From contig JAFUBO010000005.1 of NCBI GenBank assembly GCA_017460175.1, forward strand, positions 21,082 through 85,081: 64,000 nt of DNA, given 5' to 3'. A program made the position numbers and the translations under genes. Positions 11,200 to 34,074 of this stretch are shown here, one piece after another. The notes beneath the pieces were generated by a model that was not told the origin of the DNA, searched no databases, and saw only the letters and a program-made list of their open reading frames with translations. The stretch is from Bacilli bacterium (GTDB lineage: Bacteria > Bacillota_I > Bacilli_A > RF39 > UBA660). Within the stretch, counting starts at the first letter, position 1. Every line of letters starts with the position of its first letter.

Positions 11200-11276
11200 G
11201 GGCGATTAGCTCAGTTGGTTAGAGCACTTGCCTTACAAGCAAGGGGTCACAGGTTCGAGTCCTGTATCGCCCACCA
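11200..11276 (+). tRNA. tRNA-Val (anticodon TAC)
   Basis: Cloverleaf read by hand: gggcgat acceptor, anticodon loop cttacaa, CCA encoded. Confidence 0.85.
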
Positions 11277-11282
11277 TGATGT

Positions 11283-11358
<76 letters not shown>

Positions 11359-11365
11359 TTTTTTT

Positions 11366-11450
11366 GGAGAGGTAGCGAAGAGGCTAAACGCGACAGACTG
11401 TAAATCTGTTCTCATTGAGTTCGATGGTTCGAATCCATCTCTCTCCACCA
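11366..11450 (+). tRNA. tRNA-Tyr (anticodon GTA)
   Basis: Long variable arm, anticodon loop ctgtaaa, CCA encoded. Confidence 0.8.
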
Positions 11451-11461
11451 CTTATGTTTAT

Positions 11462-11536
11462 TGCCTCGTAGCCAAGTGGTAAGGCATCAGACTTTGACTC
11501 TGACATGCGTTAGTTCGAATCTAACCGAGGCAGCCA
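11462..11536 (+). tRNA. tRNA-Gln (anticodon TTG)
   Basis: tgcctcg/cgaggca acceptor stem, anticodon loop ctttgac, CCA encoded. Confidence 0.75.
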
Positions 11537-11547
11537 TTTATTTATAT

Positions 11548-11623
11548 GATCTGTTAGCTCAGTTGGTAGAGCATTTGACTTTTAATCAAAGGGTCATGAG
11601 TTCGAATCTCATACAGGTCACCA
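11548..11623 (+). tRNA. tRNA-Lys (anticodon TTT)
   Basis: Anticodon loop cttttaa, TpsiC arm ggttcgaatc, CCA encoded. Confidence 0.85.
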
Positions 11624-11629
11624 TTTTGT

Positions 11630-11718
11630 GCCTGAGTGGCGGAATTGGTAGACGCACAGGACTTAAAATCCTGCGAGAATCAACCCTCGTGCCGGTTCAA
11701 GTCCGGCCTTAGGCACCA
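11630..11718 (+). tRNA. tRNA-Leu (anticodon TAA)
   Basis: Long variable arm, anticodon loop cttaaaa, CCA encoded. Confidence 0.8.
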
Positions 11719-11755
11719 TTTTAAAAATTTGCCTATTACTTAGTAATAGGTTTTT

Positions 11756-11848
11756 GGAGGAATACCCAAGTCTGGTTGAAGGGACCGGTCTTGAAAACCG
11801 GGAGGTCGTGCAAGCGGCGCAGGGGTTCGAATCCCTTTTCCTCCGCCA
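11756..11848 (+). tRNA. tRNA-Ser (anticodon TGA)
   Basis: Long variable arm, anticodon loop cttgaaa, CCA encoded. Confidence 0.8.
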
Positions 11849-11863
11849 TTTATTACTTACATC

Positions 11864-11939
<76 letters not shown>

Positions 11940-11947
11940 ATTTGTAT

Positions 11948-12024
11948 GGTTCCTTGGTGCAGCTGGTTAACACGTCTGCCTGTCACGCAGAAGATCGCGG
12001 GTTCGAGTCCCGTAGGAACCGCCA
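11948..12024 (+). tRNA. tRNA-Asp (anticodon GTC)
   Basis: Anticodon loop ctgtcac, CCA encoded. Confidence 0.8.
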
Positions 12025-12028
12025 TTAT

Positions 12029-12104
12029 GGCTTCATAGCTCAGTCGGTAGAGCAAGGGACTGAAAATCCCTGTGTCGCTGGTTCGATTCCCGCTGGAGCC
12101 ACCA
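12029..12104 (+). tRNA. tRNA-Phe (anticodon GAA)
   Basis: Anticodon loop ctgaaaa, CCA encoded. Confidence 0.85.
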
Positions 12105-12154
12105 TTTTATTAGACATATATATACAAATATAAAGTAGCTGAACAACATGTCTT

Positions 12155-12231
12155 GCGCTCGTAGCTCAGTTGGATAGAGTGTTTGGCTACGAACCAAAAG
12201 GTCAGGGGTTCGAATCCCTTCGAGCGCACCA
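12155..12231 (+). tRNA. tRNA-Arg (anticodon ACG)
   Basis: Anticodon loop ctacgaa, CCA encoded. Confidence 0.85.
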
Positions 12232-12234
12232 GTT

Positions 12235-12311
12235 CGGGAAGTGGCTCAACTTGGTAGAGCACTTGGTTTGGGACCAAGGGGTTGCAGGTTCAAATCCTGT
12301 CTTCCCGACCA
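12235..12311 (+). tRNA. tRNA-Pro (anticodon TGG)
   Basis: Anticodon loop tttggga, CCA encoded. Confidence 0.85.
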
Positions 12312-15286: not shown

Positions 15287-15745
15287 ATGAAATATATAAA
15301 GGTAATGTTAGTAGGATTACTAGCTCTTATAGGTGTTGGTTATCGTAGCTTTGCTGCTGAAACGGATACTAATTTAAAAGGCGGTATATACTATGATAAT
15401 ATAGAGTATACTGATAACGTAGTTTTTAATGGTGTTGATGGTGTTAATTTAGATTATAATGCTTCTTTTACAACTCCTGGCGAATATTATGAATTATACT
15501 TTGATATAGTCAACTCTACTAAGTATGATATAGAAATATCCGAATATCTATGTAATGATGATGATAGACATATAGATTATGAATTAGTTTATGAAGATGG
15601 TTCTATGATTAATACTGGTGATATTATAGAAAAAGGTCAATCTAAAAGAATAAAATATAGAGTTTTATATAAAGAAGCTATTAAACAAGAAGAAGATTAT
15701 AAATTTGACACAAGTTTTTCAATATTGTATGAACAAGTAATGTAA
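15287..15745 (+). CDS. secreted protein, distant paralog of the TasA/camelysin-like family in this window (Sec-type signal peptide)
   Basis: Signal peptide with an AxA-like FAA|E cleavage site. The core (TTPGEYYELYFDIVNSTKYDIEI ... YELVYEDGSMINTGDIIEKGQSKRIKYRVLYKE) follows the same pattern as 19588, 20997 and 48987. Confidence 0.45.
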   Translation: MKYIKVMLVGLLALIGVGYRSFAAETDTNLKGGIYYDNIEYTDNVVFNGVDGVNLDYNASFTTPGEYYELYFDIVNSTKYDIEISEYLCNDDDRHIDYELVYEDGSMINTGDIIEKGQSKRIKYRVLYKEAIKQEEDYKFDTSFSILYEQVM

Positions 15746-15761
15746 ATATGTTTTTGTGTTC

Positions 15762-15918
15762 TTGACTTTTCTAAAAAAAAAGATTATAGTTATTTCATAA
15801 GTGTGATGACGGGTGTGGAAAGCCAAGAGCAGTATACTAGTTTAAAGATGATTCGTCTAGAATAAGTAAGGTGGAACCGCGGGGTAACTCGTCCTTACAT
15901 TATTCTAGATTTTTTTGT
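15762..15918 (+). promoter_or_regulatory. promoter (TTGACT-17-TATAGT) plus short T-box riboswitch leader (Gly specifier) with terminator
   Basis: T-box core aaGGTGGaACCGCGg at about 15869-15885. Terminator ctagaataagtaagg / ccttacattattctag followed by T7. The short leader has no visible stem II, as in glyQS leaders. A candidate GGA specifier lies in gtgtGGAaagcc. Confidence 0.6.
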
Positions 15919-15933
15919 TTTAAGGAGGATTTT

Positions 15934-16290
15934 ATGGAAAAAGTATGTTTAAGTGAATTAAATAAGGAAGTACAAGAAAAGATTTTAGGGGCAGGTTATG
16001 ATTTAGGTGAATATGATAATTCAAATAATTGCGTTATATTACCATTTGGAGGACTTGAATCATTAAGATGTTTTGTGGGTGGTATGCAAGATAAAAAGAC
16101 TATCTACGTATGTAATTCAAAAAATTATTATAAAGGAATTATTGATCAAATAAAAGATATGGCTGATAACGGAGTTATAAATATTAGCTTTGGAGAAGAT
16201 ATTATTGTCGAAGATAGTATTGATAATATAATTGCAAGAATGGAGGAAAAGAAAAATGCTAACAATGGAGAAAATAGTAAATTATTGTAA
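15934..16290 (+). CDS. hypothetical 118-aa protein, first gene of the T-box-glyS transcript
   Basis: ATG at 15934, 6 nt after the taaggagg RBS and directly after the T-box terminator. Its 3' end overlaps the glyS start by about 35 nt. No family recognised. Confidence 0.45.
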   Translation: MEKVCLSELNKEVQEKILGAGYDLGEYDNSNNCVILPFGGLESLRCFVGGMQDKKTIYVCNSKNYYKGIIDQIKDMADNGVINISFGEDIIVEDSIDNIIARMEEKKNANNGENSKLL

Positions 16291-17629
16291 GCAATATGGA
16301 TTTATATTTCAAGGATCAGAAATATATGGTGGTCTTTCTAATTCATGGGATTATGGACCGCTTGGAAGAGAATTAAAAGAAAATATAAAAAAAGCTTGGT
16401 GGAAAAAATTTATCCAAGAAGAAAAAAATAGTTATGGATTAGATGCAGCTATTATAATGAATCCAGAAGTTTGGGTGGCATCAGGTCATGTTGCTAGCTT
16501 TGCTGATCCTTTAATAGATTGTAAGAGTTGTAAATCAAGACATCGTGCTGATAAACTAATAGAAGATTTTACAGAAGGAAAAGAAACTGGCGACGGATGG
16601 GCAAATGATAAGTTAGAAAAATATATTAGTGATAATAAGATAGTTTGTCCTAAATGTGGAAAAAGTGATTTTACTGGTATTCGTCAATTTAATTTATTAT
16701 TTGAGACGCATATTGGTGTTACTGAAGATTCAGCATCTAAAGTATATCTAAGAGGAGAAACTGCTCAAGGAATATTTGTTAATTTCAATAATGTTTTAAG
16801 AAGTCAAAGAGCTAAAGTTCCTTTTGGTATAGGTCAAATAGGTAAGGCTTTTAGAAATGAAATTACTCCAGGTAACTTTATTTTTAGAACTCGTGAGTTT
16901 GAACAAATGGAATATGAATTTTTCTGTAAACCTGATACTGATTTAGAGTGGCATGCATATTTTAAACAAAAATGTTTGGATTTCTTAAAAGAAATAGGGA
17001 TAAAAGAAGAAAATTTAAGATATAGAGATCATGCTAAGGAAGAATTAGCTTTCTATAGTAAAGCTACAACTGATATTGAATATAAATACCCAATGGGTTG
17101 GGGAGAATTATGGGGAATAGCTGATAGAACTGATTATGATTTATCTGTTCATCAAGATCATTCTAAAACTGAGTTAAAATACTTAGATCCAGAAACAAAT
17201 GAAAAATATGTTCCTTATGTTATTGAACCTAGTGTTGGTGTTGATAGATTATTATTATCAGTATTATGTGATGCTTATGAGGAAGAAGAAATATCTGATG
17301 GAGATGTAAGAGAAGTTTTACATATTGATTCTAGATTGGCTCCATATAAAGTGTGTGTATTACCTTTAGCTAAGAAGTATCACGGTGATAAGGCTACAGA
17401 AATTTACAATGAACTTTCTAAATACTTTATGACTAGTTATGATGAATCTGGAAGTATTGGAAAACGTTATAGAAGAAATGATGCTATTGGTACTCCATGG
17501 TGTATTACTGTAGATGATGAAACTATAAATAATGGTACTGTTACGGTTAGAGATAGAGATACTATGGAACAAATAACTTTAAAATTAGATGAAGTTGTTA
17601 ATTATGTAGAAGAAAGAATTAAATTTTAA
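16256..17629 (+). CDS. glyQS: glycine--tRNA ligase (dimeric class II, GlyQS type)
   Basis: IV.YCKQ.GF.F.GSEIYGG.....DYGPLG and FRNEITP/FRTREFEQME class II motifs. ATG at 16256 lies 10 nt after ggagg. Confidence 0.9.
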   Translation: MLTMEKIVNYCKQYGFIFQGSEIYGGLSNSWDYGPLGRELKENIKKAWWKKFIQEEKNSYGLDAAIIMNPEVWVASGHVASFADPLIDCKSCKSRHRADKLIEDFTEGKETGDGWANDKLEKYISDNKIVCPKCGKSDFTGIRQFNLLFETHIGVTEDSASKVYLRGETAQGIFVNFNNVLRSQRAKVPFGIGQIGKAFRNEITPGNFIFRTREFEQMEYEFFCKPDTDLEWHAYFKQKCLDFLKEIGIKEENLRYRDHAKEELAFYSKATTDIEYKYPMGWGELWGIADRTDYDLSVHQDHSKTELKYLDPETNEKYVPYVIEPSVGVDRLLLSVLCDAYEEEEISDGDVREVLHIDSRLAPYKVCVLPLAKKYHGDKATEIYNELSKYFMTSYDESGSIGKRYRRNDAIGTPWCITVDDETINNGTVTVRDRDTMEQITLKLDEVVNYVEERIKF

Positions 17630-17772: not shown

Positions 17773-18921
17773 ATGAAGTTAAGAAGTTTAAAGAATACAT
17801 TTGTATTGTTGATGTTAACTATTTATGTTGTTTTATATAAATTGTTTATATTTCAAAAATACATGCAGTATTCAGAAATAATAACAGCATCATTTTTAGC
17901 AGTTTTATTAGCAATTTCTATTGCTTTATTAGGATTTAGAAAAGATAAAAATAGTGTGCTTGGAAAGAATGTTTTTAAAATAGTAGTTTTTTATTTAGCA
18001 TTAACTTTTTTGGTAATGTATGGTTTAGGAATGATGGTAGGATTCTTAAAAAATGCGTATTCTAGAGATTTTAGTAGTATATTTGATAATATTTTTTCTC
18101 CAATAATTATAATAATAATGGTTGAGTTTATTAGATATACAGTAATAAATGCTAATAAAGATAAAAAAATTGTAGTTATATTAATTACATTGTTGTTAAT
18201 ACTATTAGAGTTAGTTATAAGTATTCGTAGTTTTGATTTTACTGATTTAGCAGGGTCATTTAATATAACTGCTACTATAATATTGCCATGTATATTTAAG
18301 AATTACTTATTAAGTTATTTTGCATACCATATTGGATACAAAATTCCAATTATGTATAGATTAATAATGGATATATATGTGTTTATAGTTCCATTAATAC
18401 CAAATTTAGGTGATTACGTTAATTCAATGATATCAATATCATTACCAATACTTATTTATATTAGTGTTTTTTCAATGATAGATGATAGAGTTAGTAGATC
18501 AGAACCAATCTTTAATAAAAAGACATTTACTGTTTGGGATATACCAGTAGCTATAGTGCTTATTTCTTTAGTTGCATTAATATCTGGATTTTTCCCACAT
18601 TATATGGTTGGTATAGGAAGTAATTCTATGAGTCCAGTCATTCGTAAAGGTGATGCTGTTATATTAAAAAAAGTAAATGACAAGACAGAATTAAGAAAAG
18701 GTGATATAATAGCATATAGTAATGGTAAATTAATTATAGTACATAGGATAAAACAAATTAACCATGAAGGTAATAAAATTACATATACTATGAAGGGAGA
18801 TGCTAATAATAGCAATGACCCTAGAAATGTATCAAGACAGCAAATAAAAGGTATAGTTAAATTTAGAATACCAGTAATAGCATGGCCAACTGTTTGGTTA
18901 ACTGAATTATTTAATAGTTAG
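17773..18921 (+). CDS. polytopic membrane domain (about 8 TM) fused to a C-terminal S26 type I signal peptidase of the SipW/archaeal-type
   Basis: C-terminal 100 aa carry S26 boxes: GSNSMSPVIRKGD (Ser box SMxP), IVHRI (His box), GDANNSNDP (box E). The N-terminal ~280 aa are eight hydrophobic segments with no recognised family. Confidence 0.7.
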   Translation: MKLRSLKNTFVLLMLTIYVVLYKLFIFQKYMQYSEIITASFLAVLLAISIALLGFRKDKNSVLGKNVFKIVVFYLALTFLVMYGLGMMVGFLKNAYSRDFSSIFDNIFSPIIIIIMVEFIRYTVINANKDKKIVVILITLLLILLELVISIRSFDFTDLAGSFNITATIILPCIFKNYLLSYFAYHIGYKIPIMYRLIMDIYVFIVPLIPNLGDYVNSMISISLPILIYISVFSMIDDRVSRSEPIFNKKTFTVWDIPVAIVLISLVALISGFFPHYMVGIGSNSMSPVIRKGDAVILKKVNDKTELRKGDIIAYSNGKLIIVHRIKQINHEGNKITYTMKGDANNSNDPRNVSRQQIKGIVKFRIPVIAWPTVWLTELFNS

Positions 18922-18931
18922 GAGAGATATA

Positions 18932-19549
18932 ATGAGAGAGAATAATAAGGGGATACTTTTGATTGTTATTGCGATAATTGCAGGGTTAGGTGGATATTTT
19001 TTACTAAATACAGAGTATAAAGGATATAGTATTTTATGTTTTACTGCTGCTGTAATTTTAGTAGGATTTGGAATAAAGTTTATTATAGATGGTCTTAATC
19101 CAGAAAAAGCATATCAAAGTAACATTAAGAATATATTAAATACATTTGATTCTATTTTAGTCAAAAGTAATTCAGTTCCTAAATTAGTAGGGAGAAATAT
19201 TATCATTGTAGAAGATATGGAAGATATGGTTGATGCTCAATTAGAAATAAGAAAACCAATTTGTTATTATAAACAAACTGAATCATGTTCATTTGTTTTA
19301 TTAGACGATAAAGAAGCTTATGTTTATGTTGAAAAATTAAATCCAGATGTAATTTCTCCAGTAGAAATAGAAATAAATGAGATACAATTAAAACAAAAAA
19401 ATACTGATGATATAGATTCTGAAATGTTAAAAGATATAGAGAAAACAACTATTGTTAGATTATCTAATAAAAAAAGTTATAAGGTATCACCAATTAGAAA
19501 AGATCATAAACAAAGAAAAACATCTATTGAAGATGTTGAAATCATATAA
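18932..19549 (+). CDS. two-TM membrane protein with cytoplasmic domain (unknown; possible accessory factor of the SipW/TasA-like locus)
   Basis: Starts 11 nt after the peptidase stop. Two N-terminal TM helices. No family recognised. Confidence 0.5.
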   Translation: MRENNKGILLIVIAIIAGLGGYFLLNTEYKGYSILCFTAAVILVGFGIKFIIDGLNPEKAYQSNIKNILNTFDSILVKSNSVPKLVGRNIIIVEDMEDMVDAQLEIRKPICYYKQTESCSFVLLDDKEAYVYVEKLNPDVISPVEIEINEIQLKQKNTDDIDSEMLKDIEKTTIVRLSNKKSYKVSPIRKDHKQRKTSIEDVEII

Positions 19550-19587: not shown

Positions 19588-20136
19588 ATGAAGATAAAAT
19601 GGATGAAGTATAATAGAAAAAAAGTATTCATGTTCTTATCTCTTTTTTTGATATTATTTGGATTAACTTTTGGATATGCATCATTGACTACTAAAATTTC
19701 AATAGATGGTATTTCTAATGTAAAGGATGCTAAATGGAGTTTAAAATTTGATAATTTTAGTTCTATAGATGGTAGTGTTAGTCCATTGGAAGAACCAATA
19801 ATTGCAGATACAAGTGTGACTTTTTCAGCTAAAGTAAATGAACCAGGTGATTTTTATGGATTTACAGTGGATGTAGTAAATGAAGGAACAATAAATGCAA
19901 AAATAGGCAGTATTTCAATAACTCCTGATTTTTCAAATATAGATTATATAGATTCATTTATTGAATATTATGATGGTACTCCTATTTCGGTTAGTGATAC
20001 TTTAGATGCAGGAGAAACTAAAAAAATAAAAGTTTATTTAAAATATAAAGAAGGAATAGATGAGGATTTGTATCCAACAGAAAATCAACAGTTTCCTGTA
20101 ACAATTTCCCTAAAATATATTCAAGATATTAGCTAA
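19588..20136 (+). CDS. TasA/camelysin-like secreted protein with SipW-cognate-type N-terminal signal (paralog 1)
   Basis: N-terminus: basic stretch, TM helix, then GYASLTTKISIDG. Compare the TasA/CalY GTFAYFSD motif. The core EPGDFYGFTVDVVNEGTINAKI resembles the TasA PGDKLTKDFQFENNGSLAIK stretch. Ends ...YDGTPISVSDTLDAGETKKIKVYLKYKEG. Confidence 0.55.
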   Translation: MKIKWMKYNRKKVFMFLSLFLILFGLTFGYASLTTKISIDGISNVKDAKWSLKFDNFSSIDGSVSPLEEPIIADTSVTFSAKVNEPGDFYGFTVDVVNEGTINAKIGSISITPDFSNIDYIDSFIEYYDGTPISVSDTLDAGETKKIKVYLKYKEGIDEDLYPTENQQFPVTISLKYIQDIS

Positions 20137-30425: not shown

Positions 30426-30655
30426 TATAATTTGTGTATCAACGGGGATATAGGAGTAGTAATAAATGATTTATTAAAAGAGAGAGTATGGTTGGTGAAA
30501 ATACTTAATAATAATTTATGAATTCGCCTATGGAGTTCTTATTAATAATAAGCGTAATTCTTGCGTTAAAAGAATAGAGAGTATAGTAATAACTATAAAA
30601 TAAGGTGGTACCGCGAGAAATCGTCCTTATATTTTATAGTTATTTTTTTTGGAGG
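30398..30655 (+). promoter_or_regulatory. promoter (TTGTAA-17-TGaTATAAT) plus T-box riboswitch leader of pheST (Phe specifier) with terminator
   Basis: T-box core aaGGTGGTACCGCGag near 30602-30617. Terminator aactataaaata ... tattttatagtt followed by T8 at about 30586-30655. A TTC codon lies within gaattcgcc, the candidate specifier. Confidence 0.7.
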
Positions 30656-30661
30656 TATTTT

Positions 30662-31711
30662 ATGGAAAATAAAAAAATATTAGAAGTAAAGGAATTAATG
30701 AAGAATGATTTAGTTGATTCTATTGATATGAATGAATTAAATGATTTAAAAGTTAAATATTTAGGTAAAAAAGGTCTTATTACAGAACTTAATAGTGAAA
30801 TTAAGAATATTCCAAATGAAGGAAAGAAAGAATTTGGAATGTTAGTAAATGAGTTAAGAAATGAGTTTAATAATTATTATGATTCTACTAAAGAAAAACT
30901 AGATAGTATAGAATTAAATAAGAAATTAGAAAGTGAAACAGTAGATATTACTCTTCCAAGTACTAAGGTTAAATTAGGTGCTCCTCATATATTAGAAAAA
31001 GTAATAGAAGAAGTAGAGGATGTATTTATGTCTATGGGGTATGATGTAGTAGATGGACCTGAAATAGAGGAAGATAAATATAATTTTGAAATGTTAAATA
31101 TACCTAAAGGACACCCTGCAAGGGATGCTCAAGATACTTTCTATATTGAAGGTGAGGAAATACTTCTTCGTAGTCAAACAAGTCCTGTTCAAGTTAGAAC
31201 TATGTTAAAAGGAGAAGGTAAGACTCCAATTAGAATGATTTGTCCAGGTAAGACATATAGAAGAGATGATGATGATGCATCTCATTCACATCAATTTATG
31301 CAAATTGAAGGATTACTTGTTGATAAAGATATTAGTTTATCTGATTTAAAAGGTACTATGGATGTTTTATTTAAAAGATTATTTGGACAAAATATAGAAA
31401 CTCGTTTTAGACCAAGTTATTATCAATTTACAGAGCCATCTGTAGAAGTAGATATTACATGTGTTAATTGTCATGGAAAAGGATGTAATGTATGTAAGAA
31501 TAGTGGTTGGGTTACTGTAGTAGGAGCTGGTGTAGTTCACCCTAATGTACTTAGAATGAGTGGATATGATCCAGAAGTATGGAGTGGATTTGCTTTTGGA
31601 TTTGGTGCAGAACGTCTTGCGATGATGAAATATGATATTAATGATATAAGAACTTTCTATAATGCAGATTTAAGAGAAGTACATACATTTGATAGGGAGG
31701 ATGAAGAATAA
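30662..31711 (+). CDS. pheS: phenylalanine--tRNA ligase alpha subunit
   Basis: Class II motifs (GHPARD, FRPSYYQFTEPS, GFAFGFGAERLAM) plus the zinc-ribbon insert CVNCHGKGCNVCK seen in Bacillus PheS. ATG at 30662 follows ggagg. Confidence 0.9.
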   Translation: MENKKILEVKELMKNDLVDSIDMNELNDLKVKYLGKKGLITELNSEIKNIPNEGKKEFGMLVNELRNEFNNYYDSTKEKLDSIELNKKLESETVDITLPSTKVKLGAPHILEKVIEEVEDVFMSMGYDVVDGPEIEEDKYNFEMLNIPKGHPARDAQDTFYIEGEEILLRSQTSPVQVRTMLKGEGKTPIRMICPGKTYRRDDDDASHSHQFMQIEGLLVDKDISLSDLKGTMDVLFKRLFGQNIETRFRPSYYQFTEPSVEVDITCVNCHGKGCNVCKNSGWVTVVGAGVVHPNVLRMSGYDPEVWSGFAFGFGAERLAMMKYDINDIRTFYNADLREVHTFDREDEE

Positions 31712-34074
31712 TGATAAGTTTAAATTGGGTAAAAGATTATATAGATATAGAAGATCAAGATGTTTATGAACTTGCTACAAAAATTACTAAAGCCGGAATT
31801 AATATTGAAAATGTTTATACTAAAAAAATTGATAATTTAGTAATTGGTGAAGTTATAGAATGTGTTGATCATCCTGATAGTGATCATTTACATGTTTGTA
31901 AGGTTAATATTGGAGAAGATGTTCTACAAATAGTTTGTGGAGCCCATAATGTACGTGAAGGAATCAAAGTAATAGTAGCTAAAGTAGGGGCTGTATTACC
32001 AGGTAATTTTGAAATTAAACAAAGTAAGATTCGTGGTGTAGAATCATCAGGTATGATCTGTGCATTATTTGAATTAGGTTTAGAAGAGAAGACTGAAGAA
32101 AACTATAATAAAGGAATAGAAGAGTTAAATAGTGATGCTCCAGTTGGAGAAGATCCTATTACTTATTTAGGACTTGATGATACCTTATATGATTTAGATA
32201 TTCATAAACATCGTAATAATGATTGTTATTATCATATTGGATTTGCTTATGAAATAGCTTGTATTTTAAATAGAAAGGTAACTTTACCAAGTTTAGAGTA
32301 TAGTCCAATTGATGATAAAATTAAATTTAATTTAGAGGTGGAAACTCCTAAATGTAGTTATTATGTTGCACGTGAAGTTAGAAATATAAAAATTGGAGAA
32401 AGTCCAGATTTTATCAAAAAAAGATTAATTGCTGCTGGTATGAGACCAATTAATAATGTAGTAGATATTTCTAATTATGTAATGTTAGAGTTTGGTCAAC
32501 CACTTCATTTCTTTGATAGAGATAAATTAGGTGACACTATTGTTGTAAGAGATGCTAAAGAAAATGAAAAGATTACTACTTTAGATGGAAAGGAAAGAAC
32601 TCTTGATTCTAATGATATAGTTATTACTGATGGTAAGAAACCTGTATGTATTGCTGGAGTTATGGGTGGAGAAAATACTGAAGTAGATCTTAATACTAAA
32701 AATATTTTAATTGAAGCTGCTATATTTGATCCTGTTAGTATTAGATATACTGCTCGCAAATTAGAATTACCTAGTGAAGCAAGTATTCGTTATGGTAAAG
32801 GACTTTCTTTTGAATATACAGAAATGGCTAGTAGACGTGCTTGTCACTTACTAGAAAAATATGCGGATGCAGAAGTAGTAGATAGTTTTGTATTGGTAGA
32901 TAATGAGGATCATGCTGAGAAAATATTGGAATTTGTGCCAAGTGATGTTGATAAGATACTTGGTATAACTATTTCAGAAGATGATATGAAAAATGAACTT
33001 GATAGATTAGATTTTCCATATGAATTAAAGAATGGTAAATTTATTGTAACTATTCCAAGAAGAAGATTAGATATTGATGCTAATGTTAATGATATTGCTG
33101 AAGAAATTGGAAGACTTTTTGGTTATAATAACTTAGTAAGTTCACTTCCTTCTGTAGAAATTAGACGTGGTGAATATATTGGTGATGTTAAATATCGTAA
33201 GATGGTATCAAAGAGGCTTCGTAGTTTAGGATTAAATGAAGTAAAGACTTATACTTTAGTAAATCCTCTAATGGCTAGTAAGTTTATTTATGAAGATAGA
33301 AAGCCAGTTGTTTTACCAAATCCAATGAGTGTAGATAAGAGCGTAGTTAGAACTACATTAATTCCATCACTTATGAATGTATATGAGTATAATAAAGATA
33401 GAGGAGTTAAAGATATTTCTATTTATGAAATAGCTAAGACTTATGATGTTAATTATTTAGAAACAACTAAAGTATGTGGATTAATGACTGGAAACTATTT
33501 AACAAGTAGTTGGAGGGAAAATGTTAAAATTGATTTCTTTGTAGTTAAAGGTATTGTAGAAGATTTGTTAGATTTTATGGGTTATAATGGACGTTATTCA
33601 TTTGTAAGAAGTGAATGCGATGATCTTCATCCTGGAGTACAAGCAAATATTATTTTAGATGGTAAAGTAATAGGAATACTTGGTAAAGTTCATCCATCAA
33701 TACTTAAGAAAGATGTATTTGTATTTGAATTAAATTTAGATAGTATTTATGGAAAAACTAGTAAATTAAAATATAAAGAAGCATTTAAATATCCAAGTAT
33801 TTCTAAAGATATGGCTTATGCATTAGATAGAAATATATTAGTTAGTGATGTTATTAAAACTATTAAAAAAGCATCTAGTAAGATTCTACAAGATGTAGAA
33901 GTGTTTGATATATATGAAGGTGAAAATATTGATTCTAATAAGAAAAGTGTTGCTTTTAAATTAATATTTAATGGAATTGATAGAACATTAACTGATGAAG
34001 AAGTAATGATAGATTTCAATAAAATAATTGACAAAGTAGTGTCAAGTTTCAATGCTGAATTAAGAGATAAGTAA
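31711..34074 (+). CDS. pheT: phenylalanine--tRNA ligase beta subunit
   Basis: 787 aa. MISLNWVKDYIDI, the tRNA-binding domain, and B3/4, B5 and FDX-ACB-like regions. Start overlaps the pheS stop (ATGA). Confidence 0.9.
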   Translation: MISLNWVKDYIDIEDQDVYELATKITKAGINIENVYTKKIDNLVIGEVIECVDHPDSDHLHVCKVNIGEDVLQIVCGAHNVREGIKVIVAKVGAVLPGNFEIKQSKIRGVESSGMICALFELGLEEKTEENYNKGIEELNSDAPVGEDPITYLGLDDTLYDLDIHKHRNNDCYYHIGFAYEIACILNRKVTLPSLEYSPIDDKIKFNLEVETPKCSYYVAREVRNIKIGESPDFIKKRLIAAGMRPINNVVDISNYVMLEFGQPLHFFDRDKLGDTIVVRDAKENEKITTLDGKERTLDSNDIVITDGKKPVCIAGVMGGENTEVDLNTKNILIEAAIFDPVSIRYTARKLELPSEASIRYGKGLSFEYTEMASRRACHLLEKYADAEVVDSFVLVDNEDHAEKILEFVPSDVDKILGITISEDDMKNELDRLDFPYELKNGKFIVTIPRRRLDIDANVNDIAEEIGRLFGYNNLVSSLPSVEIRRGEYIGDVKYRKMVSKRLRSLGLNEVKTYTLVNPLMASKFIYEDRKPVVLPNPMSVDKSVVRTTLIPSLMNVYEYNKDRGVKDISIYEIAKTYDVNYLETTKVCGLMTGNYLTSSWRENVKIDFFVVKGIVEDLLDFMGYNGRYSFVRSECDDLHPGVQANIILDGKVIGILGKVHPSILKKDVFVFELNLDSIYGKTSKLKYKEAFKYPSISKDMAYALDRNILVSDVIKTIKKASSKILQDVEVFDIYEGENIDSNKKSVAFKLIFNGIDRTLTDEEVMIDFNKIIDKVVSSFNAELRDK

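What the first reader, a model, noticed from the sequence alone, without database searches (positions are those of the whole stretch)
15762..16290. T-box leader controls a small unknown ORF that overlaps glyS
A promoter (TTGACT-17-TATAGT) and a short glyQS-type T-box (GGTGGAACCGCGG plus terminator and T-run) precede a 118-aa ORF, not glyS itself. That ORF has a perfect taaggagg RBS 6 nt upstream, and its last ~35 nt overlap the glyS start, with the glyS ggagg RBS lying inside the ORF. So glycyl-tRNA sensing would regulate, and be translationally coupled to, an uncharacterised small protein with no recognisable family. In B. subtilis the T-box directly precedes glyQ.
Basis: seen in the sequence. 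Interest (0 to 1): 0.5.

Follow-up and report, generated by a model that had tools for sequence, protein, structure and literature searches.

The report
Mini glycine T-box, LOG remnant, glyS
A very short glycine-tRNA-sensing RNA switch sits in front of a two-gene operon, a shrunken and probably inactive copy of a LOG nucleotide-cleaving enzyme followed by the glycyl-tRNA synthetase gene; the small gene belongs to a known family, and the stripped-down design of the switch is the unusual part.

Summary
A promoter (15762-15790), a T-box sequence, a hairpin with a U-run, a 118-aa ORF (15934-16290) and a 35-nt overlap with glyS (16256-17629) are all present.

1. The ORF has a recognisable family. 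It is an internally deleted LOG/TIGR00730 protein ("mini-LOG"): hhalign probability 98.9% against full-length LOG genes, and the AF2 model's best PDB matches are LOG proteins. In 14 related genomes those full-length LOG genes are the first gene behind the same leader, upstream of glyS. The first nucleotide-binding motif is gone and PGGxGTxxE has decayed, so it is probably not catalytic. It is under relaxed purifying selection (dN/dS 0.39). It is absent from the closest sister genomes.

2. The leader is not a standard glyQS T-box (Rfam 34.5 bits against a cutoff of 93). It belongs to a conserved family of about 114 nt found in 49 related genomes:
- Stem I is about 30 nt: a K-turn and a short covarying helix.
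- The terminal loop carries U-GGN-A (GGA 40, GGC 8, GGU 1).
- There is no elbow platform and no Stem II.
- The discriminator is canonical (UGGA bulge).
- The terminator encloses the antiterminator instead of replacing it.

I found no prior description in the searchable literature. tRNA response and the mini-LOG's function remain untested.

The parts
15762..15790 (+). Sigma-70-type promoter, TTGACT-17-TATAGT. The likely transcription start is near A15797.
   Evidence: Promoter scan, 10 of 12 matches. Identical in L001. Similar hexamers sit at the same distance in most related leaders. The start site is inferred, not mapped.
15802..15831 (+). Mini Stem I. C-stem UGU/GCA (15802-15804 with 15829-15831). 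K-turn-like GAU bulge with tandem G.A pairs (15805-15809 with 15827-15828). Short helix GGU/GCC (15812-15814 with 15822-15824). Seven-nt terminal loop GUGGAAA (15815-15821).
   Evidence: The C-stem covaries, AU:31 and UA:18. All 4 pairs of the inner helix show changes on both sides across 49 leaders. Stem I is 28-33 nt in all 49. It is not stable by nearest-neighbour energy alone, z = 0.32.
15817..15819 (+). Proposed Specifier codon GGA (glycine). It is preceded by U and followed by A, at positions 3-5 of the 7-nt loop.
   Evidence: In 49 leaders the triplet is GGA 40 times, GGC 8 and GGU 1. The next base is A in 47 of 49. Pairing with the tRNA-Gly anticodon is inferred.
15832..15845 (+). A/U-rich linker of 14 nt between Stem I and the discriminator. 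It is too short to hold a Stem II or a IIA/B pseudoknot.
   Evidence: Read from the sequence. The distance from Stem I to helix A1 is 19-36 nt in the whole family.
15846..15865 (+). Discriminator latch: AGAUG (RRRNG), Stem III AUUC/GAAU (15851-15854 with 15860-15863), and the flanking AA (15864-15865).
   Evidence: [quoted passage not shown] 91% of cells are paired, but the helix is almost invariant and covariation is weak. The motif is absent in 7 of 49 leaders.
15866..15898 (+). Antiterminator. Helix A1 GUAAGG/CCUUAC (15866-15871 with 15893-15898). T-box bulge UGGAACC (15872-15878). Helix A2 GCGGG/CUCGU (15879-15883 with 15888-15892) closed by a G.U pair. Loop GUAA.
   Evidence: The Rfam T-box alignment is at high posterior probability only here. 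A1 and A2 covary, for example GC:23, AU:22, UA:4 at one A1 pair. The bulge begins UGGA in 49 of 49 leaders.
15855..15916 (+). Intrinsic terminator. An 11-bp lower stem (15855-15865 with 15900-15910, A15899 bulged) extends helix A1, so the whole antiterminator is the top of the hairpin. A run of seven U follows (15910-15916).
   Evidence: This is the minimum-free-energy fold of the window and of nearly all of the 35 leaders folded (L017 and L021 depart in part). z = -4.09 for the window copy. All 11 lower-stem pairs show changes on both sides across 49 leaders.
15922..15928 (+). Shine-Dalgarno AAGGAGG of ORF118, 5 nt before the ATG.
   Evidence: Sequence. A similar SD is present in all eight mini-LOG loci.
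15934..16290 (+). ORF118, the 'mini-LOG': a LOG/TIGR00730 homologue with an internal deletion of about 55-60 residues that removes the GxxxGMMG motif. PGGxGTxxE has decayed to PFGGLESLRC.
   Evidence: hhalign probability 98.9%, E 1.7e-17 against LOG180 genes behind the same leader in relatives. AF2 pLDDT 89 and pTM 0.82. Top PDB matches are LOG proteins. The family profile hits LOG structures at E 2e-06. Joint alignment. dN/dS 0.39.
16243..16247 (+). Shine-Dalgarno GGAGG of glyS, inside ORF118 codons M103-E105, 8 nt before the glyS ATG.
   Evidence: Sequence. The conserved mini-LOG tail EEKKN..NxG..S.LL is this overlap read in the other frame.
16256..17629 (+). glyS, a class II single-chain (alpha2-type) glycyl-tRNA synthetase of 457 aa.
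   Evidence: Pfam PF00587 and PF03129. 63-89% identical to 80 GlyRS loci. The start agrees with L007 and L088.

Best explanation
The region is one glycine-controlled operon: promoter, a reduced ('mini') transcriptional T-box leader of about 120 nt, a 118-aa LOG-derived protein, then glyS.

Shown by computation:
- The leader belongs to a conserved RNA family found in front of glyS operons in 49 related uncultured gut and rumen Bacilli genomes.
- It has a 28-33 nt Stem I: a K-turn, a short covarying helix and a terminal loop.
- The loop triplet is always a glycine codon. The T-box bulge is always UGGA.
- Its intrinsic terminator is a long hairpin whose top is the antiterminator itself.
- ORF118 is homologous to the C-terminal half, plus the first strand, of full-length LOG enzymes. 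In relatives those enzymes are the first cistron of the same operon.
- ORF118 has lost the LOG signature motifs but still evolves under purifying selection.

Inferred mechanism:
1. Uncharged tRNA-Gly(UCC) pairs its anticodon with GGA, which is presented like an anticodon in the 7-nt loop. Its 3' UCCA end pairs with the UGGA bulge.
2. This locks the purine string and Stem III onto the discriminator. Their 3' part (15855-15865) then cannot pair with 15900-15910.
3. The lower terminator stem therefore does not reach the U-run, and RNA polymerase reads through.
4. With charged tRNA or no tRNA, the lower stem displaces Stem III and transcription stops at 15910-15916.
5. After read-through, ribosomes load at the strong SD of ORF118. 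glyS starts from its own SD inside the ORF118 tail, probably helped by ribosomes that finish ORF118 35 nt further on.

The mini-LOG itself most likely acts without catalysis, either as a folded binding domain or as a translated spacer. I consider the non-catalytic folded domain the more likely of the two.
For: Operon and conservation:
- The same order (leader, 111-118-aa ORF, overlapping glyS) occurs in all eight mini-LOG loci.
- The leader is 84-92% identical between loci whose mini-LOG proteins are only 24-67% identical.

T-box identity:
- Rfam aligns the antiterminator and T-box sequence, E 2.6e-06.
- The custom model scores the window copy at 125.8 bits and gives 49 hits of 68 bits or more.
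- 90.8% of cells are paired against 75.6% in shuffles. 27 of 29 pairs change on both sides. The covariation score is 0.455, against 0.19 shuffled and about 0.1 when partners are slid.
- Codon tally: GGA 40, GGC 8, GGU 1, while the bulge stays UGGA in all 49.
- The RRRNG-Stem III-AA motif is present (PMC7583486).

Terminator: the same nested hairpin is the minimum-free-energy fold in nearly all of the 35 leaders folded; z = -4.09.

LOG origin.

Selection: dN/dS 0.39 [0.20-0.73], against 0.06 for glyS and 0.13-0.29 for neighbouring genes.
Against: - Nothing here shows a response to tRNA.
- Rfam's curated threshold is not met.
- The review literature holds that transcriptional T-boxes need the long Stem I platform, and that truncated Stem I alone barely binds tRNA without Stem II (PMC7583486). 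This leader has neither.
- The terminator does not compete with helices A1 and A2, so the switching step I propose has no precedent.
- Stem III has almost no covariation and is missing in 7 of 49 leaders.
- No tRNA-Gly gene was available to check the anticodon and discriminator.
- A promoter-like site at 16205-16232 could give glyS T-box-independent transcription.
- For the protein: it is absent from the nearest sister genomes L007 and L008. Genomes with 95% identical GlyRS carry mini-LOG alleles only 30% identical. Its dN/dS is the highest in the neighbourhood.
Confidence: 0.7

Rival explanations
1. ORF118 is a gene in decay with no function as a protein. It is the leftover of a LOG gene, and its reading frame is kept open only because ribosomes must travel from the leader to the glyS start, for coupling or for protection of the mRNA.
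For: - The catalytic motifs are lost.
- There is no ORF at all in the nearest sister genomes L007 and L008, where the T-box directly abuts glyS.
- Its dN/dS of 0.39 is the highest in the neighbourhood. More distant pairs give 0.6-1.2, although these are saturated.
- Nucleotide identity falls to 0.42-0.52 exactly within the ORF body, between a conserved leader and a conserved glyS.
Against: - The bootstrap upper bound of dN/dS is 0.73, below 1. Other pairs within the family give 0.35-0.38.
- The length stays at 111-118 aa with few indels across eight lineages at 24-67% identity.
- AF2 gives a confident LOG-like fold from only 8 sequences, pLDDT 89.
- P37, G39 and N61 are invariant in the mini family and invariant or nearly so in the joint alignment with full-length LOGs.
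Confidence: 0.22
2. The leader no longer senses tRNA. It is a degenerate T-box relic that acts as a constitutive or otherwise regulated attenuator, or merely as a stabilising 5' structure.
For: - There is no elbow-binding platform and no Stem II. Published work considers these necessary for tRNA binding by transcriptional or truncated T-boxes (PMC7583486).
- The terminator leaves the antiterminator intact.
- Rfam scores it at 34.5 bits against a cutoff of 93.
Against: A relic would not keep the following across 49 species-level genomes while helices covary around them:
- a glycine codon in the loop, with changes at the third position only;
- a purine after the codon;
- the UGGA bulge;
- the G.U closing pair of helix A2, or its G-C / A-U replacement;
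- the RRRNG and AA flanks.
These features are seen. The leader is also more conserved than the coding sequence next to it.
Confidence: 0.1
3. The mini-LOG is still an enzyme or a nucleotide-binding protein. For example, it might rebuild a pocket as a homodimer, or pair with a full-length LOG encoded elsewhere in the genome.
For: - The PGG turn and the conserved Asn of the LOG core are retained.
- The LOG-like fold is predicted with confidence.
Against: - The whole GxxxGMMG segment and the conserved Arg upstream of the PGG motif are deleted.
- The Thr and Glu of PGGxGTxxE are not conserved within the mini family.
- Pfam and TIGR00730 scores are far below their cutoffs.
- No full-length LOG lies in this 64-kb window.
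Confidence: 0.08

Closest known systems
glyQS / glyS class I transcriptional T-box riboswitches (Bacillus subtilis, Geobacillus kaustophilus, Staphylococcus aureus; Rfam RF00230)
   Same: - It has glycine specificity and regulates the glycyl-tRNA synthetase gene.
- There is a K-turn at the base of Stem I and no Stem II.
- The discriminator is canonical: RRRNG-Stem III-AA, helix A1, the 7-nt bulge UGGAACC, and helix A2 closed by a G.U pair.
- The output is an intrinsic terminator with a U-run.
   Different: - Stem I is about 30 nt, where Rfam's consensus Stem I spans about 100 model positions and the window copy skips 87 of them. The AG bulge and distal loop platform that stacks on the tRNA elbow is absent.
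- The codon sits in a 7-nt terminal loop rather than an internal Specifier Loop.
- The terminator extends helix A1 at the expense of Stem III. It is not formed from the 3' strands of A1 and A2.
- The Rfam score is 34.5 bits against a cutoff of 93.
Short and 'ultrashort' Stem I translational T-boxes of Actinobacteria (ileS; Vitreschak 2008 and Sherwood 2015, as cited in PMC3896937 and PMC7583486)
   Same: - Stem I is short and lacks the elbow platform.
[quoted passage not shown]
   Different: - Those RNAs carry a Stem II S-turn and a IIA/B pseudoknot that compensate for the short Stem I. Here only 14 nt separate Stem I from the discriminator.
- Those RNAs sequester the SD and act on translation. 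Here a U-run terminator ends before the SD.
- They differ in phylum (Actinobacteria against Bacilli) and in amino acid (Ile against Gly).
LOG / TIGR00730 / PF03641 family (cytokinin riboside 5'-monophosphate phosphoribohydrolase type; B. subtilis YvdD, PDB 1t35; C. glutamicum LOG, PDB 5its)
   Same: - The C-terminal 80 residues are homologous and the Rossmann-like alpha/beta fold is predicted.
- The PGG turn and the core Asn are kept.
- Full-length members are the first gene behind the same leader, upstream of glyS, in related genomes.
   Different: - It is 118 aa instead of about 180.
- An internal deletion of about 55-60 residues removes the GGGxxGxMG-type motif and the conserved Arg.
- The Thr and Glu of PGGxGTxxE are lost, so it is very probably not a phosphoribohydrolase.

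Membership tests
T-box leader (Rfam RF00230) | Reaches the curated gathering score of the family covariance model | tested here: not met
   34.5 bits against a gathering score of 93. Only the 3' half aligns, and 87 Stem I model positions are skipped. The pheS T-box in the same window scores 115.9 bits.
T-box leader (Rfam RF00230) | T-box sequence forming an antiterminator: helix A1, a 7-nt bulge beginning UGGN, and helix A2 closed by a G.U pair | tested here: met
   15866-15898. A1 and A2 covary. The bulge is UGGAACC in 43 leaders and UGGAACA in 6. The closing pair of A2 is GU:35, GC:8, AU:6.
T-box leader (Rfam RF00230) | Specifier codon that matches the amino acid of the regulated gene and is followed by a purine | tested here: met
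   GGA at 15817-15819, followed by A. In 49 leaders upstream of glyS the triplet is GGA 40, GGC 8, GGU 1, and a purine follows in 48 of 49.
T-box leader (Rfam RF00230) | N of UGGN is complementary to the discriminator base of the cognate tRNA | tested here: inconclusive
   N is A in 49 of 49 glyS leaders, but U in the pheS leader of the same window and in the few other canonical T-boxes seen in the loci (L012, L015, second L031 site, L070). This fits U73 of bacterial tRNA-Gly, which I recall rather than tested. No tRNA-Gly gene was found in the window or in 54 loci.
T-box leader (Rfam RF00230) | Long Stem I with an internal Specifier Loop and a distal AG bulge / distal loop platform that binds the tRNA elbow | tested here: not met
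   Stem I is 28-33 nt and the codon is in the terminal loop.
T-box leader (Rfam RF00230) | K-turn (GA motif) at the base of Stem I | tested here: met
   UGU-GAU-GA ... GA-GCA at 15802-15809 and 15827-15831. The C-stem covaries, AU:31 and UA:18. A K-turn geometry is inferred from the sequence pattern only.
T-box leader (Rfam RF00230) | 5'-RRRxG-Stem III-AA-3' purine string of the discriminator | tested here: met
   AGAUG-AUUC(GUCUA)GAAU-AA at 15846-15865. 91% of cells pair, but there are few compensatory changes. The motif is as defined in PMC7583486 and PMC7778990. It is absent in 7 of 49 family members.
T-box leader (Rfam RF00230) | Terminator formed by the 3' strands of A1 and A2 and mutually exclusive with the antiterminator | tested here: not met
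   The sequence downstream of A1 has no complement to CUCGUCCUUAC. Instead 15900-15910 pairs with 15855-15865 and helices A1 and A2 persist. This holds in the window and in nearly all of the 35 leaders folded.
T-box leader (Rfam RF00230) | Read-through induced by uncharged cognate tRNA | not testable with these tools
   Needs in vitro transcription or a reporter assay.
Actinobacterial short / ultrashort translational T-box (class II) | Short Stem I with the Specifier in the hairpin loop | tested here: met
   The feature is as described in PMC3896937 (citing Vitreschak 2008) and PMC7583486.
Actinobacterial short / ultrashort translational T-box (class II) | Stem II S-turn and Stem IIA/B pseudoknot | tested here: not met
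   Only 14 nt (15832-15845) lie between Stem I and the purine string. The family range from Stem I to A1 is 19-36 nt.
Actinobacterial short / ultrashort translational T-box (class II) | The output is an SD sequestrator, not a terminator | tested here: not met
   The hairpin ends in seven U at 15910-15916. The SD at 15922-15928 lies outside it.
LOG / TIGR00730 / PF03641 | Reaches the curated family cutoffs | tested here: not met
   PF03641 gives 19 bits against 27. TIGR00730 gives 19.1 bits against 96.35. Only the C-terminal third of each model is matched.
LOG / TIGR00730 / PF03641 | Homology to family members by profile and by fold | tested here: met
   hhalign probability 98.9%, E 1.7e-17. 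The family profile hits LOG structures 2a33, 1ydh and 5its at E 2e-06 to 3e-05. Foldseek's top hits are 1t35, 5its and 1ydh, TM-score 0.60-0.70 normalised to the query. tblastn of L052 LOG against the mini-LOG loci L088, L089 and L091 gives E 9e-08 to 4e-12.
LOG / TIGR00730 / PF03641 | N-terminal GGGxxGxMG-type nucleotide-binding motif | tested here: not met
   It is deleted, together with about 55-60 residues. The motif is recalled from the LOG literature and is present as GxxxGMMG in the LOG180 relatives.
LOG / TIGR00730 / PF03641 | PGGxGTxxE catalytic motif | tested here: not met
   The window has PFGGLESLRC. Within the mini family only P and the first G are invariant and the second G is nearly so. 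T and E are replaced.

The most novel reading that the evidence does not exclude
The leader may represent a previously undescribed minimal class of transcriptional T-box, about 114 nt long. It would recognise tRNA-Gly with only an anticodon-loop-like hairpin (U-GGN-A in a loop that is 7 nt in the window and in the commonest form) plus the discriminator, with no elbow platform and no Stem II. It would switch by competition between the Stem III / purine-string latch and a lower terminator stem that encloses an intact antiterminator. If so, the smallest natural tRNA-sensing transcriptional switch is much simpler than current models require. A second novel point is that a LOG-family nucleotide hydrolase, or its inactive remnant, would be a regular member of a glycyl-tRNA-controlled operon.
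Probability: 0.45. Interest if true: 0.75.

Novelty: new variant of a known kind. Interest (0 to 1): 0.55.

Why it matters
For T-box biology: reviews state that transcriptional T-boxes need the long Stem I platform to capture tRNA fast enough, and that a truncated Stem I barely binds tRNA without Stem II (PMC7583486). A natural family in 49 species-level genomes with neither element, and with a terminator that spares helices A1 and A2, makes three questions directly testable. What is the minimal tRNA-sensing unit? Can an anticodon-anticodon-type loop contact replace the platform? Can the Stem III purine latch alone be the switching element? A switch of about 114 nt would also be a compact part for engineering.

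For annotation: standard Rfam-based pipelines would miss these leaders, and the mini-LOG is filed as a hypothetical protein.

For physiology: placing a LOG-type nucleotide hydrolase under glycyl-tRNA control suggests a link between amino-acid starvation and nucleotide turnover in reduced gut Bacilli. This remains speculative.

If instead the mini-LOG is only a decaying remnant, it is a clear snapshot of how an operon sheds a gene while keeping translational coupling to an essential downstream gene.

Tried and rejected
- **Rfam at gathering threshold.** It found no T-box here. The permissive run recovered only the discriminator half.
- **The simple terminator scan.** It found nothing, because the hairpin's apical part is the whole antiterminator, which is outside the scan's loop limit.
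- **RNAalifold on the MAFFT alignment.** It recovered only the C-stem, A1 and A2. The inner Stem I helix and the lower terminator stem needed realignment with a model.
- **An ORF start at GTG 15871 (139 aa).** Rejected. It lies inside the T-box sequence, whereas ATG 15934 has the strong SD and matches all homologues.
- **The loop UGGN as a second binding site for the tRNA NCCA end.** Rejected. Its N varies (A, C, U) while the T-box bulge of the same leaders stays UGGA.
- **GGG at 15811-15813 as the Specifier.** Rejected. It is AGG in L001.
- **A defence-system reading of a SLOG-type domain.** PADLOC gives no hit for ORF118 and only marginal hits for LOG180.
- **A leader-peptide reading.** Rejected, because the ORF encodes a confidently folded 118-aa domain.
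- **A tRNA-Gly gene to check anticodon and discriminator.** None was found in the window or in 54 loci.
- **Prior descriptions in the literature.** Searches found nothing on a mini glycine T-box or on a LOG gene under T-box control. Vitreschak 2008 could not be opened, so prior description cannot be excluded.
- **Other mini T-boxes in the window.** None. The model's second hit, at 30552-30663, is the discriminator of the canonical pheS T-box.
- **The word-index protein search.** It found only 2 relatives. The exhaustive HMMER search was needed to find the family.
Full report
**1. What is there**

- Promoter: TTGACT (15762-15767), a 17-nt spacer, TATAGT (15785-15790). The promoter scan lists it at 10 of 12 matches.
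- T-box sequence: GGTGGAACCGCGG at 15870-15882.
- A hairpin followed by seven U at 15910-15916.
- AAGGAGG at 15922-15928, 5 nt before ATG 15934.
- A 118-codon ORF ending at 16290.
- glyS with GGAGG at 16243-16247 and ATG at 16256, so the two ORFs overlap by 35 nt.

glyS encodes a 457-aa class II GlyRS (PF00587 and PF03129). Its start agrees with relatives that lack the upstream ORF.

**2. Is the leader a T-box?**

At Rfam's gathering score it is not. The only T-box reported in the window is a canonical one at 30436-30631 (115.9 bits), which precedes pheS-pheT. A permissive scan of 15700-16000 gives RF00230 at 34.5 bits against a cutoff of 93 (E 2.6e-06). Only the antiterminator aligns confidently, and 87 Stem I positions are skipped.

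Comparative data settle the question. I fetched 80 GlyRS loci from species-representative genomes and the contigs that encode ORF118 relatives. Many carry the same short leader. A covariance model built from 29 of them finds 49 copies at 68-133 bits. Twenty of these were not used to build the model. The window copy, which was one of the 29, scores 125.8 bits.

On the 49-sequence alignment:
- 90.8% of cells form standard pairs, against 75.6% in shuffles.
- 27 of 29 pairs show changes on both sides.
- The covariation score is 0.455, against 0.19 for shuffles (0 of 500 reach it) and about 0.1 when partners are slid by 1-3 columns.

That alignment is fitted to the model. However, an independent MAFFT and RNAalifold run already showed covariation in the C-stem, A1 and A2.

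**3. Anatomy of the leader (window coordinates)**

*Stem I, 15802-15831.* It has a 3-bp C-stem (UGU/GCA), a GAU bulge and tandem G.A pairs in a K-turn pattern. A 3-bp helix (GGU/GCC) follows, closed by the 7-nt loop GUGGAAA. The inner helix takes more than a dozen different sequences across the family. Stem I is 28-33 nt in all 49 copies.

*The loop triplet.* It is GGA in 40 copies, GGC in 8 and GGU in 1, so it is always a glycine codon. It is preceded by U and followed by A in 47 of 49. Within the 7-nt loop the pattern is N-U-[GGA]-A-N, which is the layout of an anticodon loop (U33, anticodon, purine 37). That comparison is my inference.

*Linker.* Only 14 nt (15832-15845) follow Stem I, so a Stem II or a IIA/B pseudoknot cannot be present.

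*Discriminator.*
- Helix A1: 15866-15871 with 15893-15898.
- Bulge UGGAACC: 15872-15878.
- Helix A2: 15879-15883 with 15888-15892, closed by the G.U pair that serves as the steric sensor in solved complexes (PMC7583486).

The bulge begins UGGA in all 49 glyS leaders, but UGGU in the pheS leader of this window and in the few other canonical T-boxes seen in the loci. This fits U73 of bacterial tRNA-Gly, which I recall rather than tested. No tRNA-Gly gene was available for a direct check.

**4. The terminator is not canonical**

In textbook T-boxes the 3' strands of A1 and A2 re-pair with downstream sequence (PMC7583486). Here nothing downstream is complementary to them. Instead 15900-15910 pairs with 15855-15865, which covers the loop and 3' strand of Stem III plus the AA flank. 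This extends helix A1 by 11 bp right up to the U-run.

The whole antiterminator is therefore the apical part of the terminator hairpin. This is the minimum-free-energy fold in the window (-24.4 kcal/mol, z = -4.09, 0 of 200 shuffles). Nearly all of the 35 leaders folded adopt the same architecture. All 11 lower-stem pairs covary.

The element that competes with the terminator is thus Stem III and its purine flanks, not A1 and A2. Stem III itself is 91% paired but nearly invariant, so covariation neither supports nor refutes it. Seven leaders lack it and have a purine-rich strand in its place.

**5. Proposed mechanism (inferred)**

1. Uncharged tRNA-Gly pairs its anticodon with the loop codon and its UCCA end with UGGA.
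2. As in solved complexes, the purine string then docks along the tRNA-bulge duplex and helix A2 (PMC7583486). This holds 15846-15865 away from the 3' strand.
3. The hairpin next to the U-run is then only A1 and A2, 11 nt away from the U-run, and RNA polymerase reads through.
4. Without that latch the lower stem forms by displacing the weak Stem III, and transcription ends.

How tRNA is captured quickly enough without the elbow platform is unknown. The review literature regards that platform as essential for transcriptional T-boxes, and regards a truncated Stem I as nearly inert without Stem II (PMC7583486). Short T-boxes with the codon in the loop are known, but only as translational ileS-type elements of Actinobacteria that possess Stem II (PMC3896937 citing Vitreschak 2008; PMC7583486). 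Five literature searches found no description of this glycine variant, and a sixth found no LOG gene under T-box control. The key 2008 survey could not be read.

**6. What ORF118 is**

The word-index search found only an identical MAG protein ('Bacilli bacterium', hypothetical) and one relative at 70% identity. An exhaustive HMMER search found six more proteins of 111-118 aa at 29-45% identity. Wherever the contig extends far enough, each sits between the same mini T-box and glyS and overlaps the glyS start (the L092 contig ends at the ORF's stop). Their conserved tail, LEEKKN..NxG..S.LL, is the glyS SD and N-terminus read in another frame.

Pfam and NCBIfam give weak hits to the C-terminal part of PF03641 and TIGR00730 (E 0.0017 and 0.00085).

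In 14 related genomes the gene directly behind the mini T-box is a full-length LOG protein of about 170-190 aa.
- In seven scanned with Pfam, PF03641 scores 55-67 bits against a cutoff of 27.
- TIGR00730, scanned on three, reaches E 1e-25.
- The GxxxGMMG and PGGxGTxxE motifs are intact.
- The LOG gene is sometimes followed by another gene before glyS: a beta-lactamase-like protein in L009 and a GNAT in L062.

Evidence that the mini family derives from these genes:
- Profile-profile comparison of the mini family with them gives probability 98.9%, E 1.7e-17. Mini residues 24-102 align to LOG residues 94-178.
- The mini-family profile hits solved LOG structures at E 2e-06 to 3e-05.
- AlphaFold2 models ORF118 at pLDDT 89 and pTM 0.82. 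The best PDB matches are YvdD (1t35), C. glutamicum LOG (5its) and Arabidopsis LOG (1ydh), with TM-score 0.60-0.70.
- A joint alignment shows retention of the first strand (MKVY.S against MKVFI.S) and an internal deletion of about 55-60 residues. The deletion removes the first nucleotide-binding motif and the conserved Arg. The Thr and Glu of PGGxGTxxE are also lost; the window has PFGGLESLRC.

ORF118 is therefore a LOG derivative that almost certainly cannot catalyse the LOG reaction.

**7. Is it a real gene?**

Between the window and L001 (GlyRS 95% identical) the part of ORF118 that does not overlap glyS has dN 0.19, dS 0.48 and dN/dS 0.39, bootstrap 95% interval 0.20-0.73. The comparison values are 0.06 for glyS and 0.13-0.29 for six neighbouring genes. 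Other within-family pairs give 0.35-0.38.

Length is conserved and the fold is confidently predicted. This argues for protein-level selection, though a relaxed one.

Several facts point the other way.
- The nearest sister genomes by GlyRS (L007 at 89%, L008 at 85%) have the T-box directly in front of glyS with no ORF.
- L089 has a GlyRS 95% identical to the window's (dS 0.56) and a leader 87% identical. Yet its mini-LOG is only 30% identical.
- The drop in nucleotide identity, to 0.42-0.52, is confined to 15918-16217.

This pattern suggests either replacement of a cassette by recombination through the conserved flanks, or a burst of divergence. It is unexplained.

**8. Evolutionary reading (inferred)**

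Canonical long glyS T-boxes occur in the more distant Clostridia-like loci (for example L057, L061, L080 and L083). The mini form is confined to one group of uncultured gut and rumen Bacilli. Behind the 49 mini T-boxes:
- glyS follows directly, or after a short spacer, in 27;
- a full-length LOG gene comes first in 14;
- a mini-LOG comes first in 8.

The simplest history is an ancestral T-box-LOG-glyS operon from which LOG was repeatedly lost or reduced. The window shows the reduced state.

**9. Verdict**

Glycyl-tRNA control of a small ORF coupled to glyS is plausible and conserved. The ORF, however, is a degenerate LOG rather than a family-less protein. The leader is a reduced T-box variant rather than a glyQS-type one.

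The part that would surprise a specialist is the design of the leader. The part that remains open is whether the mini-LOG does anything beyond being translated. No experiment backs the tRNA response, the translational coupling or any function of the protein.

Noticed in passing
window 30436-30631 (and ORFs 30605-31711, 31711-34074): A canonical full-length T-box (Rfam 115.9 bits) precedes pheS and pheT. Its bulge is UGGU. The same genome therefore uses both a standard T-box and the mini form.
   Followed up: partly
window 11200-12311: A cluster of 12 tRNA genes (Val, Thr, Tyr, Gln, Lys, Leu, Ser, Met, Asp, Phe, Arg, Pro). It contains no tRNA-Gly, so the anticodon and discriminator could not be checked.
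   Followed up: yes
window 16205-16232: A promoter-like site, TTGTCG-16-TATAAT, lies inside ORF118 about 25 nt upstream of the glyS start. It could give glyS transcription that bypasses the T-box. Such matches are common in this AT-rich DNA (13 found against 8 expected).
   Followed up: partly
window 15918-16217 compared with L089 2501-2800: Nucleotide identity between two genomes with 95% identical GlyRS falls to 0.42-0.52 exactly across the mini-LOG body. The leader stays at 0.82-0.87 and glyS at 0.85-0.95. The mini-LOG behaves as a hypervariable or exchanged cassette.
   Followed up: partly
window 15287-15745, 17773-18921, 18932-19549, 19588-20136: Two proteins with no Pfam match (152 and 182 aa) share an N-terminal hydrophobic segment and a PG(E/D)(Y/F)Y..(F/V)D(I/V)VN motif. 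They flank a 382-aa membrane protein with an S24/S26 signal-peptidase-like domain and a DUF5305 protein. From memory this resembles a SipW/TasA-type secreted-fibre cluster. It was not tested.
   Followed up: no
L009 1002-4371; L062 1797-4374: Longer versions of the operon exist. L009 has mini T-box (GGC), LOG (171 aa), a beta-lactamase-like protein (445 aa) and glyS. L062 has mini T-box, LOG (177 aa), a GNAT acetyltransferase (180 aa) and glyS.
   Followed up: partly
L078 2873-3000; L081 2872-3000: A spacer of about 130 nt with a 21-codon ORF separates the mini T-box terminator from glyS. It may be the last trace of a lost upstream gene.
   Followed up: no
L018, L019, L022, L025, L037, L046, L058 (mini T-box hits): This sub-family of the mini T-box has no AUUC..GAAU Stem III. 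In six of the seven (all but L058) the bulge is UGGAACA. A purine-rich strand (AGAGAACAAAG in L019 and close variants in L018, L025 and L046; other purine-rich sequences in L022, L037 and L058) forms the 5' side of the lower terminator stem.
   Followed up: partly
L046 442-966 and 2868-2992: Here the LOG gene lies upstream of the mini T-box, separated from it by a 562-aa ORF, rather than behind it.
   Followed up: no
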